Positions 12,545 to 37,680 of a stretch of 64,000 bases of DNA are shown here, one piece after another. The notes below the pieces were generated by a model. That model had not been told where the DNA came from. It did not search any database and worked only from the letters and a program-made list of their open reading frames with translations. Positions within the stretch are counted from its first letter, which is position 1, and every line of letters begins with the position of its first letter. The stretch comes from Escherichia coli (lineage in GTDB: Bacteria; Pseudomonadota; Gammaproteobacteria; Enterobacterales; Enterobacteriaceae): the NCBI RefSeq assembly GCF_017348835.2, contig NZ_CP071375.1; one strand, given 5' to 3'. The translations under genes and the position numbers were made by a program.

Positions 12545-15500
12545 ATGGACAAGGAATTACCGTGGCTGGCTGATAACGCCCAACTGGAACTGAAATATAA
12601 AAAGGGTAAAACACCACTCAGCCATCGCAATTGGCCGGGCGAACCAGTGCCTGTTATCACTGAAAGCATCATTCAGACACTGGGTGATGAATTGCTACAA
12701 AAAGCTGAGAAGAAAAAAAACATTGTCTGGCGTTATGAAAATTTTTCACTGGAGTGGCAGTCCGCCATCACGCAGGCCATCAACTTGATCGGCGAACACA
12801 AACCCTCAATCCCGGCCCGGACAATGGCGGCGCTAGCCTGTATCGCGCAAAATGACAGCCAACAGTTGCTCGACGAAATCGTCCAACAAGAGGGGCTGGA
12901 ATATGCGACTGAGGTGGTGATTGCACGCCAGTTTATTGCGCGGTGTTATGAGAGTGATCCTCTGGTAGTGACATTGCAGTATCAGGACGAGGATTATGGC
13001 TATGGTTATCGCTCAGAAACCTATAACGAATTCGATCTCCGACTGCGTAAGCATCTCTCTCTGGCAGAGGAAAGCTGCTGGCAGCGTTGCGCCGACAAAC
13101 TCATTGCCGCACTACCAGGAATAACCAAAGTTCGCCGCCCTTTTATTGCGCTGATCCTCCCGGAAAAACCAGAAATAGCCAATGAGTTGGTAGGCCTTGA
13201 ATGCCCGCGAACTCATTTTCATTCTAAGGAGTGGTTAAAAGTTGTTGCTAATGACCCCACAGCGGTGAGAAAACTCGAACACTACTGGAGCCAGGATATA
13301 TTTAGCGATCGAGAAGCCAGCTACATGTCGCATGAAAACCACTTCGGCTACGCGGCCTGCGCCTCCCTTTTGCGCGAACAAGGACTGGCAGCCGTTCCGC
13401 GCCTGGCAATGTATGCTCATAAAGAAGATTGCGGCAGTCTGCTGGTACAAATTAACCATCCGCAAGTCATCCGCACCTTGCTGTTAGTTGCTGATAAAAA
13501 CAAACCCAGCCTGCAACGTGTGGCTAAATACAGTAAAAACTTCCCCCATGCGACGCTCGCCGCACTGGCAGAACTGCTGGCGTTAAAAGAACCACCAGCC
13601 CGCCCTGGTTATCCAATCATCGAAGACAAAAAGCTGCCTGCACAGCAAAAAGCTCGAGATGAATACTGGCGTACGCTGTTACAAACGCTGATGGCATCGC
13701 AGCCACAACTGGCAGCAGAAGTGATGCCGTGGTTAAGTACTCAAGCCAGGGCAGTGCTGAAGAGTTATTTATCGGCACTGCCAAAACCGGTTATTGATGG
13801 CACCGATAACAGCAATCTGCCTGAAATCCTCGTTTCACCACCGTGGCGTAGTAAGAAAAAAATGACAGCTCCACGTCTTGATTTGGCACGGCTCGAATTA
13901 ACTCCGCAAGTTTACTGGCAACCAGGCGAACGAGAGAGGCTTGCCGCCACTGAGCCTGCCCGTTATTTCAGCACGGAATCTCTTGCGGAACGCATGGAAC
14001 AAAAAAGTGGACGAGTTGTATTACAGGAACTGGGTTTTGGGGATGATGTATGGCTGTTTTTGAATTATATACTCCCCGGAAAACTGGATGCTGCACGCAA
14101 TTCACTCATTGTTGAGTGGCATTACTACCAGGGGCGGGTTGAAGAGATCCTGAATGGCTGGAACTCCCCGGAAGCACAATTAGCAGAACAGGCGCTTCGC
14201 AGCGGTCACGTAGAAGCGTTAATTAACATATGGGAAAATGACAACTACTCACGTTATCGTCCGGAAAAGAGTGTCTGGAACCTGTATTTATTGGCACAGT
14301 TGCCGCGTGAGATGGCTTTGACCTTCTGGCTGCGTATCAATGAGAAAAAACATCTGTTCGCGGGTGAGGACTATTTTCTCAGTATCCTCGGATTGGATGC
14401 GCTACCAGGTCTGCTGTTGGCTTTTTCACATCGTCCAAAAGAAACATTTCCGTTAATTTTAAATTTTGGCGCAACAGAACTGGCCCTGCCTGTTGCCCGC
14501 GTCTGGCGACGTTTCGCGGTGCAGCGTGATCTGGCTCGCCAGTGGATTTTACAATGGCCGGAACATACGGCTACTGCACTTATCCCTCTTGTCTTCACCA
14601 AATCTAGCGATAAAAGCGAAGCTGCATTACTTGCCCTGCGTTTACTTTACGAACATGGGCATGGCGAATTGCTACAAACTGTAGCCAATCGTTGGCAGCG
14701 TACAGATCTATGGCCTGCCCTGGAACAATTACTTAAACAGAGTCCAATAGAGATTTACCCGGCACGCATTCCAAAAGCCCCTGATTTCTGGCATCCGCAA
14801 ATGTGGTCCAGGCCGCGCCTTATCACTAATAATCAAACTGTTACCGATGACGCTCTGGAAATTATCGGCGAAATGCTGCGCTTTACCCAGGGGGGACGTT
14901 TTTATAGCTGGCTGGAACAACTGAAAACGTTCTGCCAGCCACAAACGCTGGCAGCTTTTGCCTGGGATCTCTTCACTGCGTGGCAACAAGCTGGTGCCCC
15001 CGCAAAAGACAACTGGGCATTTCTGGCGTTAAGTCTCTTTGGTGACGAAAGCACGGCACGGGATCTGACGACACAGATCCTCGCCTGGCCACAAGAAGGC
15101 AAATCTGCCCGTGCTGTCAGCGGCCTGAACATCCTTACCCTGATGAATAATGATATGGCGCTGATACAGCTGCATCATATATCGCAACGGGCTAAATCCC
15201 GCCCCTTACGTGATAACGCGGCGGAATTTCTTCAGGTGGTCGCAGAAAATCGCGGGCTAAGCCAGGAAGAGCTAGCGGACAGATTAGTCCCAACCCTGGG
15301 CCTTGATGATCCGCAGGCGTTGAGTTTTGATTTTGGTCCCCGGCAGTTTACCGTTCGCTTCGATGAAAACCTCAACCCGGTTATCTTTGATCAGCAAAAC
15401 GTTCGCCAGAAAAGCGTTCCCCGGTTGCGCGCCGATGACGATCAACTGAAAGCGCCCGAGGCACTGGCCCGACTAAAAGGGCTAAAAAAAGATGCCACTC

Positions 15501-16177
15501 AGGTGAGCAAAAACCTGCTCCCGCGTCTTGAAACGGCCCTACGTACCACCCGACGCTGGTCGCTGGCAGATTTTCATTCTCTGTTTGTTAATCATCCCTT
15601 TACCCGTCTGGTTACCCAGCGATTAATATGGGGGGCTTATCCGGCAAATGAACCGCGTTGTTTACTCAACGCCTTTCGTGTGGCCGCAGAGGGGGAGTTC
15701 TGCAATGCGCAAGATGAGCCCATTGGCCTGCCTGCGGATGCTCTGATTGGCATTGCCCACCCGTTAGAAATGGCAGCAGAAATGCGCAGTGAATTTGCAC
15801 AGCTTTTTGCCGATTACGAAATTATGCCGCCTTTTCGCCAGTTGGCGCGGCGCACGGTGCTGCTGACGCCTGACGAGTCAGCCAGTAACAGCCTGACTCG
15901 CTGGGAAGGTAAATCCGCTACCGTTGGGCAACTTATGGGAATGCGATACAAAGGCTGGGAGTCAGGCTATGAGGACGCATTTGTCTATGACTTAAGTGAA
16001 TACCGGCTGGTCCTTAAGTTTTCACCCGGTTTTAACCACTACAATGTTGATAGCAAAGCGCTAATGAGCTTCCGTTCTCTTCGAGTGTACCGTGACAATA
16101 AATCCGTCACTTTTGCCGAACTTGATGTGTTTGATTTGAGTGAGGCGTTAAGCGCACCTGACGTCATTTTCCATTAA
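12545..16177 (+). CDS. yehI: MolR-family paralog, copy 3: conserved C-terminal region but no WGR module
   Basis: 1210 aa ORF starting 10 nt after copy 2; shares the conserved blocks (e.g. ...FAWDLFTAW...GAPAK.NWAF...) but has a different N-terminus and C-terminal tail. Confidence 0.85.
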   Translation: MDKELPWLADNAQLELKYKKGKTPLSHRNWPGEPVPVITESIIQTLGDELLQKAEKKKNIVWRYENFSLEWQSAITQAINLIGEHKPSIPARTMAALACIAQNDSQQLLDEIVQQEGLEYATEVVIARQFIARCYESDPLVVTLQYQDEDYGYGYRSETYNEFDLRLRKHLSLAEESCWQRCADKLIAALPGITKVRRPFIALILPEKPEIANELVGLECPRTHFHSKEWLKVVANDPTAVRKLEHYWSQDIFSDREASYMSHENHFGYAACASLLREQGLAAVPRLAMYAHKEDCGSLLVQINHPQVIRTLLLVADKNKPSLQRVAKYSKNFPHATLAALAELLALKEPPARPGYPIIEDKKLPAQQKARDEYWRTLLQTLMASQPQLAAEVMPWLSTQARAVLKSYLSALPKPVIDGTDNSNLPEILVSPPWRSKKKMTAPRLDLARLELTPQVYWQPGERERLAATEPARYFSTESLAERMEQKSGRVVLQELGFGDDVWLFLNYILPGKLDAARNSLIVEWHYYQGRVEEILNGWNSPEAQLAEQALRSGHVEALINIWENDNYSRYRPEKSVWNLYLLAQLPREMALTFWLRINEKKHLFAGEDYFLSILGLDALPGLLLAFSHRPKETFPLILNFGATELALPVARVWRRFAVQRDLARQWILQWPEHTATALIPLVFTKSSDKSEAALLALRLLYEHGHGELLQTVANRWQRTDLWPALEQLLKQSPIEIYPARIPKAPDFWHPQMWSRPRLITNNQTVTDDALEIIGEMLRFTQGGRFYSWLEQLKTFCQPQTLAAFAWDLFTAWQQAGAPAKDNWAFLALSLFGDESTARDLTTQILAWPQEGKSARAVSGLNILTLMNNDMALIQLHHISQRAKSRPLRDNAAEFLQVVAENRGLSQEELADRLVPTLGLDDPQALSFDFGPRQFTVRFDENLNPVIFDQQNVRQKSVPRLRADDDQLKAPEALARLKGLKKDATQVSKNLLPRLETALRTTRRWSLADFHSLFVNHPFTRLVTQRLIWGAYPANEPRCLLNAFRVAAEGEFCNAQDEPIGLPADALIGIAHPLEMAAEMRSEFAQLFADYEIMPPFRQLARRTVLLTPDESASNSLTRWEGKSATVGQLMGMRYKGWESGYEDAFVYDLSEYRLVLKFSPGFNHYNVDSKALMSFRSLRVYRDNKSVTFAELDVFDLSEALSAPDVIFH

Positions 16178-16237
16178 AACACAGCGGGCAGTGATGCAAC
16201 TGCCCGTTATCAACACGACTTACCAGCGGGGAAAGCG

Positions 16238-16555
16238 ATGATCGTGCAAAAAGAGCTGGTTGCTATTTACGATTATGAGGTCCCTGTACCTGAAGATCCG
16301 TTTTCCTTCAGACTTGAGATCCATAAATGCTCTGAATTATTTACAGGTTCCGTCTATCGACTGGAGCGATTCCGGCTACATCCAACATTTCGTCAACGTG
16401 ATCGAGAAGATGCTGACCCGCTAATAAATGATGCGTTGATTTATATAAGAGATGAGTGTATTGATGAGCGGAAATTACGAGGTGAATCACCTGAAACTGT
16501 AATAGCAATTTTTAATCGTGAACTACAGAATATATTCAACCAAGAAATAGAATAA
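16238..16555 (+). CDS. yehK: Small cytoplasmic protein of unknown function
   Basis: 105 aa ORF downstream of yehI, preceded by a stem-loop (CGGGCAGT-GATGCAA-CTGCCCG at 16186-16208). Confidence 0.75.
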   Translation: MIVQKELVAIYDYEVPVPEDPFSFRLEIHKCSELFTGSVYRLERFRLHPTFRQRDREDADPLINDALIYIRDECIDERKLRGESPETVIAIFNRELQNIFNQEIE

Positions 16556-16573
16556 TATACTCTAGATAATTCA

Positions 16574-16610
16574 AGTCGCAGCACATGCAACTTGAAGTAT
16601 GACGAGTATA
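16574..16610. repeat. Partial ERIC (IRU) repeat
   Basis: AGTCGCAGCACATGCAACTTGAAGTATGACGAGTATA matches the 3' half of the ERIC copy at 46682-46770. Confidence 0.7.
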
Positions 16611-16617
16611 GCTTTAT

Positions 16618-16645
16618 TAAAGGGGGAAGCGGTTTTCCCCCTTAG
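16618..16645. terminator. Bidirectional hairpin between yehK and the toxin ORF
   Basis: AAGGGGGAA-GCGGTT-TTCCCCCTT perfect stem-loop. Confidence 0.6.
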
Positions 16646-16664
16646 ATGCGTTTCAATTTGCCCG

Positions 16665-16754
16665 TTACTTCAACAAATCAATCAACCGTAACAGAGCTAC
16701 TAATAGCTCCAGTACAGCAATGAGCACGGTTAACTTTTGTGTCAGCGTGTCCAT
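16665..16754 (-). CDS. zorO: 29 aa hydrophobic type I toxin peptide (ZorO-like)
   Basis: Reverse-strand ORF MDTLTQKLTVLIAVLELLVALLRLIDLLK, one predicted TM helix, AGGAG RBS 7 nt upstream, ~175 nt 5' UTR from a TATAAT at 16941-16936; UTR carries a 20-mer complementary to the divergent sRNA. Confidence 0.65.
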   Translation of the reverse strand: MDTLTQKLTVLIAVLELLVALLRLIDLLK

Positions 16755-16935
16755 CCGCTCTCCTTATTAAGGAGCGCAACACCAGCACCTTACCCTTACA
16801 CTGCCTGTCGATACTGGTTTACGTATGTTGGACCACGATGTTGCACTCCGGATCAGGGCACCACCTGCAGCACCACCCGTCCGGTAGCCAGGACTTGAAA
16901 TAGGTTCGATCCGGCGCAACGTCCCAACGGTCTGG

Positions 16936-16986
16936 ATTATAAATCTCATTATCTTAATTGCAACGGGGTCCAGCCGTGGTTATAAT
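16936..16986. promoter_or_regulatory. Back-to-back sigma70 promoters for the toxin mRNA (-) and antitoxin sRNA (+), sharing a palindromic -35
   Basis: Plus strand: TTGCAA (16958-16963), 17 nt spacer, TATAAT (16981-16986). Minus strand: the same palindromic TTGCAA, 16 nt spacer, TATAAT (complement of 16936-16941). Confidence 0.55.
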
Positions 16987-16992
16987 TCGTTC

Positions 16993-17077
16993 GTTGGAAC
17001 ACGATGTTGCACAGGCTGTGGTGTTAGGCCTGAAAATAGTAAATAAAAGAACCTGCCTCACCAGCAGGTTTTTTTAT
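16993..17077 (+). ncRNA. orzO: Candidate antitoxin small RNA (OrzO-like), ~85 nt
   Basis: Predicted start ~7 nt after the consensus -10; 5' end GTTGGAACACGATGTTGCAC repeats 16827-16846 (GTTGGACCACGATGTTGCAC, one mismatch) inside the toxin 5' UTR; ends at terminator ACCTGC-CTCACCA-GCAGGTTTTTTT (17050-17077). Confidence 0.55.
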
Positions 17078-17186
17078 TTACTGTGATCTGCTTTCCAGAT
17101 ATTTTTCGCTCAAACAACTAATGCGCCAAACATTTATTGCGCGTAAAATATCGTTTATTTCATTAATACATTTCAGGGATGAATAT

Positions 17187-18275
17187 ATGTCACCGCAGAA
17201 TAATCATCTGCAGCGTCCGCCTGCTGCTGTGTTATACGCCGATGAACTGGCAAAATTAAAACAAAATGATACCGCACCTTGCCCGCCCGGTTGGCAGTTA
17301 AGTTTGCCTGCGGCCCGTGCTTTTATCCTTGGCGATAGCGCGCAAAATATTAGCCGTAAAGTGGTGATTAGTCCCTCCGCTGTCGAACGTATGTTAGTCA
17401 CTCTTGCCACCGGACGCGGTTTGATGTTGGTGGGGGAACCTGGCAGCGCAAAATCTCTCCTGTCTGAATTACTGGCAACCGCTATTAGCGGCGATGCCGG
17501 GTTAACCATCCAGGGCGGCGCATCTACTACCGAAGATCAAATCAAGTACGGCTTGAACTACGCCCTGCTTATCAATCATGGTCCATCAACGGAAGCGCTG
17601 GTCCCTGCCCCGCTTTACCAGGGAATGCGCGACGGCAAAATCGTCCGTTTTGAAGAGATAACGCGTACACCGCTGGAAGTGCAAGACTGTCTGTTAGGTA
17701 TGCTTTCTGACAGGGTGATGACGGTGCCGGAACTCACTGGTGAAGCCAGTCAGCTCTATGCGCGAGAAGGCTTTAATATTATTGCCACTGCCAATACCCG
17801 CGATCGCGGCGTCAATGAAATGAGTGCTGCGCTAAAGCGTCGCTTCGATTTTGAAACTGTCTTTCCGATTATGGATTTCGTCCAGGAGCTGGAGCTTGTC
17901 GCCAGTGCTTCGGCGCGTTTGCTGGCCCATAGCGGTATTCCGCATAAAGTGCCTGACGCGGTACTGGAGTTACTGGTCCGCACCTTCCGCGATCTGCGTG
18001 CCAACGGCGAAAAGAAAACGTCAATGGATACACTAACAGCGATTATGTCCACCGCTGAAGCCGTGAACGTGGCCCACGCTGTGGGCGTCCGCGCCTGGTT
18101 TTTAGCGAATCGCGCAGGTGAGCCAGCCGATCTGGTGGACTGTATTGCCGGAACCATCGTCAAAGATAACGAAGAAGATCGCGCTCGTCTGCGCCGTTAC
18201 TTCGAACAGCGAGTCGCCATACATAAAGAAGCTCACTGGCAGGCTTATTATCAAGCCCGCCACCGCCTGCCGTGA
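17187..18275 (+). CDS. yehL: MoxR-type AAA+ ATPase
   Basis: Walker A LVGEPGSAKS; Walker-B-like IVRFEEITR (Glu where Asp is usual); sensor-1-like IIATANTRD; RRF arginine finger; start taken at MSPQNNH inside ORF 17121..18275. Confidence 0.85.
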   Translation: MSPQNNHLQRPPAAVLYADELAKLKQNDTAPCPPGWQLSLPAARAFILGDSAQNISRKVVISPSAVERMLVTLATGRGLMLVGEPGSAKSLLSELLATAISGDAGLTIQGGASTTEDQIKYGLNYALLINHGPSTEALVPAPLYQGMRDGKIVRFEEITRTPLEVQDCLLGMLSDRVMTVPELTGEASQLYAREGFNIIATANTRDRGVNEMSAALKRRFDFETVFPIMDFVQELELVASASARLLAHSGIPHKVPDAVLELLVRTFRDLRANGEKKTSMDTLTAIMSTAEAVNVAHAVGVRAWFLANRAGEPADLVDCIAGTIVKDNEEDRARLRRYFEQRVAIHKEAHWQAYYQARHRLP

Positions 18276-37507: not shown

Positions 37508-37680
37508 GATGAGCATTCAGATAGTGGTTCACGCGCACGGGTTGCGCACCGCCGGAGTAAGGATTTACTGAGGCTAGCGACGCCATCATAACGAGCAAAA
37601 AGTGCGATCGTCAAAGGAGAATCGTGAGGAAATGCTGCATTGCTGACATTTACGCCAGCAATGCAACGTCAAAGAACTTT

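What the first reader, a model, noticed from the sequence alone, without database searches (positions are those of the whole stretch)
16574..16610. Partial ERIC repeat beside the toxin-antitoxin insertion, with a full copy at 46680-46772
The two ERIC-type copies share a 37 nt identical core (AGTCGCAGCACATGCAACTTGAAGTATGACGAGTATA). The truncated copy sits directly next to the toxin-antitoxin module, suggesting this spacer is a hot spot for repeat insertion or rearrangement.
Basis: seen in the sequence. Interest (0 to 1): 0.3.

Follow-up and report, generated by a model that had tools for sequence, protein, structure and literature searches.

The report
Internally deleted ERIC repeat beside zor-orz
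The flagged 37 bases are the right half of a 55-bp, internally deleted copy of the well-known ERIC mobile repeat, sitting between the yehK gene and the known zor-orz toxin-antitoxin module in a spacer that differs greatly among E. coli strains; all of its components are already described, so it is ordinary.

Summary
The repeat is real, but the description needs correcting. Window 16574-16610 matches 46733-46769 at 36/37, not 37/37; 34 nt are exact and none is expected by chance.

The copy is not truncated. It is a complete 55-bp "short" ERIC (16556-16610) that keeps both termini (TATACTC...GAGTATA) and the TA target duplication. It lacks the central 72 bp, which were lost between two AGTCGCAG direct repeats. 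Other strains carry the intact 127-bp ERIC at the same site. The window's full copy is 46643-46769, not 46680-46772.

The neighbouring module is the known type I zor-orz system: a 29-aa toxin ORF at 16665-16754 (-) and the OrzO-P sRNA at 17000-17075 (+).

Across 5,426 complete E. coli genomes the yehK-yehL spacer has these states:
- empty site, about 25%
- short ERIC, 19.7%
- full ERIC, 12.6%
- long ERIC, 4.1%
- a 19-nt ERIC left-end stub fused to the zor 5'UTR, 34% (the K-12 type, antitoxin only)

ERIC form and zor-orz unit number combine in most ways. The exception is the K-12 deletion, which has one breakpoint inside ERIC.

So "rearrangement hot spot" is supported and "truncated copy" is not. 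The elements and their variation are already published, and interest is low.

The parts
16238..16555 (+). yehK coding sequence; the stop TAA is at 16553-16555, immediately before the ERIC
   Evidence: ORF list; RefSeq annotation of the 100%-identical strain F2_81
16556..16610 (+). 55-bp short (internally deleted) ERIC/IRU element. It has a left arm (16556-16581) and a right arm (16582-16610), 7-bp terminal inverted repeats TATACTC/GAGTATA, and TA at both ends (16556-16557, 16609-16610), which is the target-site duplication
   Evidence: 26/26 plus 36/37 to the 127-bp ERIC at the same site in L004; a simulated 72-bp deletion reproduces it with 1 mismatch; hairpin z-scores of -4.5 and -5.7; empty versus filled site comparison
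16574..16581 (+). AGTCGCAG, the single remaining copy of the 8-bp direct repeat (ERIC positions 19-26 and 91-98) that bounds the 72-bp internal deletion.
   Evidence: alignment A1
16575..16899 (.). Stretch absent from the K-12-type allele (1845 of 5426 genomes). It covers the ERIC right part, the terminator, the zor ORF and most of the zor 5'UTR; the junction has 2-bp microhomology (AA)
   Evidence: consistent with the 27-29 nt of zor 5'UTR retained in orz-only strains reported in PMC11264685
16613..16632 (.). Crossover interval of the one-unit (608-bp) difference between this window's single zor-orz unit and the two-unit allele of strain 2012C-4221
   Evidence: 3 residual mismatches
16620..16643 (.). 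GC-rich hairpin (AAGGGGGAAG...TTTTCCCCCTT) downstream of the convergent yehK and zor genes. It is the inferred zor terminator and possibly works in both directions
   Evidence: Folds of 16540-16660 on both strands. The simple terminator scan did not list it, so its function is inferred
16665..16754 (-). zor toxin ORF of 29 aa, MDTLTQKLTVLIAVLELLVALLRLIDLLK. It has the ZorO-type residues T3 and A20, and also R23
   Evidence: variant definitions (ZorP = T3S, ZorQ = A20S) from PMC11264685; R23 mutants in PMC9860968
16822..16846 (-). [quoted passage not shown] On the + strand it appears as a 22/25 direct repeat of 16988-17012
   Evidence: D1; base-pairing mechanism from PMC3919570
16936..16986 (.). 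Divergent sigma-70-like promoters, each matching 10 of 12 positions: zor (-35 at 16963, -10 ending at 16936, minus strand) and orz (16958-16986, plus strand)
17000..17075 (+). Orz antitoxin sRNA (Rfam OrzO-P). Its sequence is identical to the yehL-proximal (orzP-position) unit and to the K-12 copy
17187..18275 (+). yehL coding sequence (RefSeq start)
46643..46769 (+). Full-length 127-bp ERIC in the same orientation, 44 nt upstream of the preT start (46814). It is itself an insertion polymorphism: present in 2198 of 5426 genomes, with a 125-bp shorter empty site in many others

Best explanation
Window 16556-16610 is a 55-bp short-form ERIC (enterobacterial repetitive intergenic consensus, also called IRU or RU-1). 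ERIC is a non-autonomous MITE-like repeat.

History, in the inferred order:
1. One ERIC inserted, with a TA target-site duplication, into the TA that follows the yehK stop codon. That site lies between yehK and the terminator of a zor-orz type I toxin-antitoxin module that was already there.
2. In some lineages the 127-bp imperfect palindrome then lost its central 72 bp by a deletion between two 8-bp direct repeats (AGTCGCAG) flanking the central stem. The likely mechanism is replication slippage helped by hairpin formation. Both arms survive and still fold into a stable stem-loop.
3. The window's allele also carries only one zor-orz unit. It equals a two-unit allele minus one 608-bp unit, with the crossover 3-22 bp from the ERIC end.

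The same spacer has been remodelled in other ways elsewhere. One variant has a 77-bp insertion inside ERIC. The K-12-type variant has a 325-bp deletion from ERIC position 19 to 29 nt inside the zor 5'UTR, which removed the toxin and left an orphan Orz antitoxin.

Shown: the identity, boundaries, alleles, breakpoints and frequencies. Inferred: the slippage mechanism, the order of events, and any effect of the ERIC hairpin on yehK or zor transcripts.
For: Identity as ERIC:
- 7-bp terminal inverted repeats and both arms match 127-bp ERICs.
- The 127-nt length and the TA ends/TA duplication agree with published ERIC properties (PMC2229807 Table 1; PMC2759123).

Empty versus filled site:
- E. whittamii has GAATAA-TA-GTTTATT and ERIC-bearing alleles have GAATAA-TA[TACTC...GAGTA]TA-GCTTTATT.
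- The filled-minus-empty difference at the preT copy is 125 bp, that is 127 minus the TA.

Deletion in place:
- Strain 2016C04-116 has a 127-bp ERIC at exactly this site, with AGTCGCAG at positions 19 and 91.
- Deleting one repeat plus the interval gives 55 bp with 1 mismatch to the window copy.
- The short copy shares three site-specific left-arm variants with that allele and not with the preT copy (100% vs 88.5%).

Preferred deletion product:
- The same 55-bp form with the same junction is found at two unrelated loci, downstream of yafP and upstream of speF.

Hairpin:
- RNA folding energy is -19.1 kcal/mol on the + strand and -22.1 on the - strand, with z-scores of -4.5 and -5.7.

Census of 5,426 genomes:
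- short 1067, full 685, long 224, K-12 junction 1845.
- empty 701 plus about 660.
- at least two zor-orz units in 1801.

Neighbouring module and breakpoints:
- TA module identity.
- Unit deletion.
- K-12 breakpoints with 2-bp microhomology.
Against: - The slippage mechanism is inferred from the direct repeats and the recurrent junction; no experiment was done here.
- The same short form at three loci could also mean that a short subfamily transposed as such. At yehK this is countered by the shared site-specific variants and the coexisting full-length allele.
- The order of events (two units to one unit; ERIC insertion after zor-orz) rests on parsimony with three non-coli Escherichia genomes. 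Two of them already carry ERIC at this site, so recombination between lineages could blur the history.
- The census used junction queries with E-value cut-offs, so divergent alleles may be missed. About 244 genomes (4.5%) are unassigned, and the split between the two empty-site types is approximate.
- The primary ERIC papers (Wilson & Sharp 2006; Sharp & Leach 1996; De Gregorio 2005) could not be read here and are cited from memory or through reviews.
Confidence: 0.85

Rival explanations
1. The ERIC copy was truncated when the toxin-antitoxin module inserted into it or next to it. On this view 16574-16610 is one broken end of a once full element.
For: Only the right-hand 37 nt are obvious by eye. 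The module starts 9 nt after the repeat.
Against: Both ERIC termini and the TA duplication are present at 16556-16610. The missing 72 bp are internal and bounded by direct repeats. zor-orz abuts yehK without any ERIC in E. whittamii and in about 25% of E. coli. No ERIC fragment lies on the other side of the module (blastn of the window).
Confidence: 0.02
2. The 55-bp element arrived at yehK as an already short ERIC, by transposition of a short subfamily or by gene conversion from another short copy, rather than by deletion in place.
For: The identical short form and junction occur at at least two other loci, downstream of yafP and upstream of speF, in many genomes.
Against: The same TA site, in the same orientation, holds 127-bp and about 204-bp ERICs in other strains and in two non-coli Escherichia. 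The left arm of the short copy is 26/26 identical to the full allele at this site but differs at 2-3 positions from the short copies elsewhere and from the preT copy. Independent insertions into the same TA in the same orientation would be needed.
Confidence: 0.08
3. The stem-loop is maintained mainly because it is functional. It could be a 3'UTR stabiliser/destabiliser or terminator for yehK, or an insulator between the convergent yehK and zor transcripts. On this view it is not a neutral decaying repeat.
For: It is a stable hairpin immediately after the yehK stop. In Yersinia, ERICs are co-transcribed and alter the stability of neighbouring transcripts in an orientation-dependent way through RNase E (reviewed in PMC2229807 and PMC3184786).
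Against: The site is empty, short, full, long or reduced to a 19-nt stub at comparable frequencies across E. coli. That is not the pattern of a conserved functional element. No expression data were available here.
Confidence: 0.1

Closest known systems
ERIC / IRU / RU-1 elements of Enterobacteriaceae (Sharples & Lloyd 1990; Hulton et al. 1991; Wilson & Sharp 2006), including the described short forms with internal deletions and long forms with ~70-bp internal insertions
   Same: Same sequence family, with 7-bp terminal inverted repeats, TA ends and TA duplication. It is intergenic and directly downstream of a stop codon, and it folds as an imperfect palindrome. At this single site the population carries the canonical 127-bp form, a short form and a long form with a 77-bp insertion at position 86.
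   Different: Nothing differs in kind. This copy is 55 bp rather than 127 bp. That short and long classes were already described is taken from my memory of the abstracts of Wilson & Sharp 2006 and Sharp & Leach 1996, which could not be opened here.
zor-orz type I toxin-antitoxin locus of E. coli (Fozo et al. 2010; Wen et al. 2014, PMC3919570; Shore et al. 2024, PMC11264685)
   Same: A 29-aa toxin ORF, a divergent Orz sRNA matching Rfam RF02083, divergent promoters, and Orz complementarity to the zor 5'UTR. Unit number varies among strains and K-12 has an orz-only state. The counts here (34% orz-only, 33% with at least two units) are close to the published 30% and 42% from another genome set.
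   Different: The window has one unit, with a ZorO-type protein and an OrzP-type sRNA at the yehL-proximal position. The published work does not mention ERIC in its main text (0 occurrences). The left breakpoint of the orz-only deletion inside ERIC is an added detail.
Other bacterial MITEs with TA target duplication (Correia/NEMIS of Neisseria, RUP of S. pneumoniae)
   Same: Small non-autonomous palindromic repeats with TA target duplication, co-transcribed with neighbouring genes, and showing presence/absence polymorphism (PMC2229807).
   Different: They are unrelated in sequence. No transposase partner is known for ERIC.

Membership tests
ERIC / IRU (MITE-like repeat) | Sequence similarity to the 127-bp ERIC over the element's arms | tested here: met
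   Left arm 26/26 and right arm 36/37 to the 127-bp ERIC at the same site in L004. Against the window's own 127-bp copy, the left arm is 23/26 and the right arm has 34/34 exact.
ERIC / IRU (MITE-like repeat) | Terminal inverted repeats (7 bp, TATACTC/GAGTATA) with 5'-TA-3' at both termini | tested here: met
   Present at 16556-16562 and 16604-16610 (I2). The feature list comes from PMC2229807 Table 1.
ERIC / IRU (MITE-like repeat) | TA target-site duplication, shown by comparing empty and filled sites | tested here: met
   The empty site is GAATAA-TA-GTTTATT (E. whittamii) and the filled site is GAATAA-TA[...]TA-GCTTTATT. The filled-minus-empty difference at the preT copy is 125 bp.
ERIC / IRU (MITE-like repeat) | Imperfect palindrome that folds into a long stem-loop | tested here: met
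   Short copy: -19.1 and -22.1 kcal/mol, z-scores -4.5 and -5.7. Full copy: -52.7 kcal/mol, z-score -7.5. No shuffle in 200 folded as well.
ERIC / IRU (MITE-like repeat) | Canonical length of about 127 bp | tested here: not met
   It is 55 bp, with the central 72 bp missing. This places it in the short, internally deleted class rather than outside the family. The 46643-46769 copy is 127 bp.
ERIC / IRU (MITE-like repeat) | Located in a transcribed intergenic region (co-transcribed with a flanking gene) | not testable with these tools
   It starts at the base after the yehK stop codon, so co-transcription is likely, but no RNA data were available.
zor-orz type I toxin-antitoxin | Orz sRNA matching the curated family model | tested here: met
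   RF02083 OrzO-P scores 99.9 bits (gathering score 60) over the full model 1-76 at 17000-17075.
zor-orz type I toxin-antitoxin | Divergently encoded 29-aa hydrophobic Zor toxin ORF | tested here: met
   16665-16754 (-) encodes MDTLTQKLTVLIAVLELLVALLRLIDLLK. T3, A20 and R23 agree with the residue numbering in PMC11264685 and PMC9860968. The full published sequence was not retrieved for a letter-by-letter comparison.
zor-orz type I toxin-antitoxin | Complementarity of about 18 nt between Orz and the zor 5'UTR | tested here: met
   16822-16846 and 16988-17012 are 22/25 identical on the + strand, so Orz is complementary to the zor mRNA there. The 15-17 nt requirement is from PMC11264685.
zor-orz type I toxin-antitoxin | Toxicity of Zor and its repression by Orz | not testable with these tools
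   Shown experimentally for the EDL933 locus in PMC3919570; not shown for this strain.

The most novel reading that the evidence does not exclude
The ERIC beside zor is more than a bystander. Its palindromic arms may have promoted the single 325-bp deletion, from ERIC position 19 to 29 nt inside the zor 5'UTR, that removed the toxin and produced the orphan OrzP antitoxin allele now carried by about a third of E. coli, including K-12. More generally, ERIC hairpins may act as fragile sites that drive the decay and remodelling of adjacent toxin-antitoxin modules. The breakpoint inside ERIC is shown by sequence. The right breakpoint falls in a 10-11-nt motif (ACTTGAAATA) that resembles the ERIC arms (D2 and I5). 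A causal role for ERIC is not shown.
Probability: 0.2. Interest if true: 0.35.

Novelty: already known. Interest (0 to 1): 0.18.

Why it matters
Mostly it does not change anything. ERIC elements, their short and long forms, the zor-orz module and its copy-number variation are all published.

Three modest points are useful:
- One locus shows the whole life cycle of a bacterial MITE within a single species: empty site, insertion with TA duplication, internal deletion, internal insertion, and a terminal stub.
- The origin of the widespread orphan OrzP antitoxin allele, including in K-12, can be stated to the base pair, with one end inside ERIC.
- Annotation pipelines and ERIC-PCR interpretation should expect 55-bp ERIC forms that keep both ends.

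Tried and rejected
- Rfam has no ERIC family. The only hit on the element is a sub-threshold isrH match (22 bits against a gathering score of 45), which probably reflects ERIC-like sequence inside that model. The Thr/Trp-leader hits at 17002-17078 are just the Orz terminator.
- The primary ERIC papers were not held (Wilson & Sharp 2006; De Gregorio 2005). A text search for the short and long ERIC description found nothing useful, so those statements rest on reviews and on memory.
This was enough to polarise the insertion, but it is too few to date it.
- A hairpin-excision model for the K-12 deletion was considered and rejected. The breakpoints are not symmetrical in the 11-nt inverted repeat 16567-16577/16892-16902, and strict microhomology is only 2 bp.
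- A complete cross-tabulation of ERIC form against zor-orz unit number could not be obtained, because the search tool reports counts and not sequences. Independence rests on sequenced examples of each combination and on marginal counts.
- No protein-level searches were needed.

Full report
**The observation**

Its only other occurrence in the window, allowing up to 3 mismatches, is 46733-46769, and that copy has one mismatch (AGTCGC vs AGACGC). Shuffled sequence gave no matches. The exact shared run is 34 nt. So the repeat is real and not due to chance, but "37 nt identical" is 36/37.

The sequence upstream of 16574 changes the picture. Directly after the yehK stop codon (TAA, 16553-16555) comes TATACTCTAGATAATTCAAGTCGCAG. 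This is the left arm of an ERIC element.

The whole small copy is therefore 16556-16610, 55 bp, with both 7-bp terminal inverted repeats (TATACTC...GAGTATA). The large copy is 46643-46769, exactly 127 bp, not 46680-46772. A blastn of the full element against the window found only these two copies. Both are in the same orientation.

**What the small copy is**

Comparison with other E. coli genomes settles it. In strain 2016C04-116 a 127-bp ERIC lies immediately after the yehK stop, as in the window (L004 1556-1682). It contains the octamer AGTCGCAG twice, at positions 19-26 and 91-98. Removing one octamer and the 64 bp between them gives a 55-mer that differs from the window's copy at one base.

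The window's left arm is 26/26 identical to that allele but only 23/26 to the window's own preT-side ERIC. The short copy is therefore an in-place derivative of a full ERIC at this site, not a broken end.

The 55-mer still folds as a hairpin: -19.1 kcal/mol on the + strand and -22.1 on the - strand as RNA, z-scores -4.5 and -5.7, and no shuffle in 200 folds as well.

The same 55-bp form with the same junction (GAGTCGCAG[C/T]ACATGC) is found at two unrelated loci in many genomes, downstream of yafP and upstream of speF. It is a preferred deletion product of ERIC. From memory, Sharp & Leach 1996 and Wilson & Sharp 2006 described short ERICs produced by internal deletion. I could not open those papers.

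**Insertion signature**

E. whittamii has no ERIC here. Its sequence reads ...GAATAA TA GTTTATTAAAGGGGG. ERIC-bearing alleles read ...GAATAA TA[TACTC...GAGTA]TA GCTTTATTAAAGGGGG. This is a TA target-site duplication, as published for ERIC (PMC2229807 Table 1; PMC2759123).

At the window's second ERIC, genomes without the element are 125 bp shorter, that is 127 minus one TA.

**The neighbour**

- Rfam's OrzO-P antitoxin model matches 17000-17075 (+) end to end at 99.9 bits against a gathering score of 60.
- On the opposite strand, 16665-16754 encodes MDTLTQKLTVLIAVLELLVALLRLIDLLK, 29 aa. T3 and A20 make it the ZorO-type protein as defined in PMC11264685.
- Divergent promoter-like sites lie at 16936-16986.
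- The Orz 5' region is complementary to the zor 5'UTR at 16822-16846.
- A GC-rich hairpin at 16620-16643, 9 nt from the ERIC end, is the inferred zor terminator.

This is the known zor-orz type I toxin-antitoxin system (PMC3919570). The window is E. coli. The 3-kb stretch 15000-18000 is 100% identical to strain F2_81, where the flanking genes are annotated yehI, yehK, yehL and yehM.

I used junction-spanning queries with E-value limits strict enough that only uninterrupted junctions score, against 5,426 complete E. coli genomes.

| State of the site after yehK | Genomes | Share |
|---|---|---|
| 55-bp short ERIC (includes O157:H7, O55:H7, O111 and Nissle 1917) | 1067 | 19.7% |
| 127-bp full ERIC | 685 | 12.6% |
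| About 204-bp long ERIC (77-bp insertion at position 86; includes type strain ATCC 11775) | 224 | 4.1% |
| 19-nt ERIC left end fused to the zor 5'UTR (K-12 type) | 1845 | 34.0% |
| Empty site, two sequence types (701 plus about 660) | about 1361 | about 25% |
| Unassigned | about 244 | 4.5% |

The linker that separates tandem zor-orz units is present in 1801 genomes, 33%. These figures agree reasonably with a published survey of a different genome set: 30% orz-only, 25% one unit, 42% two units (PMC11264685).

Sequenced examples show these combinations:
- short ERIC with one unit (window, Nissle 1917)
- short ERIC with two units (RM19259, 2012C-4221)
- full ERIC with one unit (2016C04-116, Escherichia sp. 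E1V33)
- long ERIC with one unit (M-17, Escherichia sp. MOD1-EC7003)
- empty site with one unit (W60)
- empty site with two units (ET300, SCU-316, 2017C-4173W12, E. whittamii)

So ERIC form and unit number are largely independent.

**Shared boundaries**

There are two cases.

The first is the K-12-type allele. It is TATACTCTAAATAATTCAA|ATTGGTCCGATCC..., meaning ERIC positions 1-19 joined to the zor 5'UTR with a 2-bp microhomology, AA. In window coordinates it lacks 16575-16899. That stretch holds the rest of ERIC, the terminator, the toxin ORF, and all of the 5'UTR except the first ~29 nt, so the Orz pairing site is lost. The orz gene remains.

This matches the published statement that orz-only strains keep 27-29 nt of the zor 5'UTR, and that K-12 expresses an orphan OrzP. 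The main text of that paper does not mention ERIC.

The right breakpoint lies in ACTTGAAATA. This motif is a 9/10 direct repeat of the ERIC right arm and a 10/11 inverted repeat of the left arm. Repeats of that size are expected by chance in 700 bp, so I treat a causal role for ERIC as possible, not shown.

The second case is the window's own allele. It equals the two-unit allele of strain 2012C-4221 minus exactly one 608-bp unit, with the crossover somewhere in 16613-16632, 3-22 bp from the ERIC end, and 3 residual mismatches. Only 17 records match the 3-kb stretch at 99% identity or better, so this exact allele is probably rare.

**Mechanism and function**

The following are shown: one TA-duplicating insertion site; a 72-bp internal deletion bounded by 8-bp direct repeats that recurs at other ERIC loci; a unit-length difference in the tandem zor-orz array; and a microhomology deletion from ERIC into zor.

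The following are inferred:
- The internal deletion arose by replication slippage helped by the palindrome.
- ERIC inserted after zor-orz was already in place. E. whittamii has two units and no ERIC, but two other non-coli Escherichia already carry ERIC here, so the insertion is old or has moved by recombination.
- The one-unit state of this strain is derived.

ERIC begins at the base after the yehK stop, so it is very likely part of the yehK 3'UTR. In Yersinia, co-transcribed ERICs change the stability of neighbouring mRNA through RNase E in an orientation-dependent way (reviews PMC2229807 and PMC3184786). Here, empty, short, full, long and stub states are all common, which argues against a conserved function.

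**Verdict**

Everything at the locus belongs to described families and described kinds of variation. The only small addition is that the toxin-removing deletion carried by K-12 and a third of E. coli has one end inside this ERIC. Interest is low.

Noticed in passing
L011 1527-1581 (E. coli Nissle 1917, the same site as window 16556-16610): The B2-type short ERIC has the left arm TATACTCATCATACTTCAAGT instead of TATACTCTAGATAATTCAAGT. Three of the four changes make it complementary to the right arm, which looks like quasipalindrome template-switch correction. About 118 genomes fall in the matching identity band (90-95%).
   Followed up: partly
window 46643-46769: The full ERIC upstream of preT is itself a presence/absence polymorphism. 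It is filled in 2198 of 5426 genomes, and many others have an empty site 125 bp shorter.
   Followed up: partly
L016 1201-1255 (between yafP and the rtcB/prfH pseudogenes) and L017 1201-1252 (between speFL and speF): Two other E. coli loci carry the same 55-bp short ERIC with the same deletion junction. In all, 2780 of 5426 genomes have at least one contiguous 55-bp form.
   Followed up: partly
window 16556-16610: A sub-threshold Rfam isrH (RF01391) hit of 22 bits, model positions 161-216, coincides exactly with the short ERIC. This suggests that the Salmonella sRNA model contains ERIC-like sequence.
   Followed up: no
window 37512-37592 (-): A Peptidase-S11 RNA motif (RF03039) scores 72.8 bits, above its gathering score. 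It is a known cis-regulatory motif unrelated to the finding.
   Followed up: no
window 16530-16556 and 17162-17188: A 27-nt imperfect inverted repeat (78% complementary) brackets the whole yehK-yehL spacer, running from the end of yehK to the start of yehL (I1). It is AT-rich and may be chance.
   Followed up: no
L002 (K-12 lineage strain JB41) 1557-1862: K-12 keeps an intact orz gene identical to the window's 17000-17075 but has no zor toxin. This orphan antitoxin is already reported as OrzPmg in PMC11264685.
   Followed up: yes
yehK 3' end, window 16550-16555 versus L005 1554-1559: The yehK stop codon differs with the state of the site. ERIC-bearing alleles and E. whittamii end GAA TAA (105 aa). 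Empty-site type 1 alleles read GAA AAA TAG (106 aa). Some type 2 alleles are annotated with a longer 117-aa ORF running into the zor terminator.
   Followed up: partly
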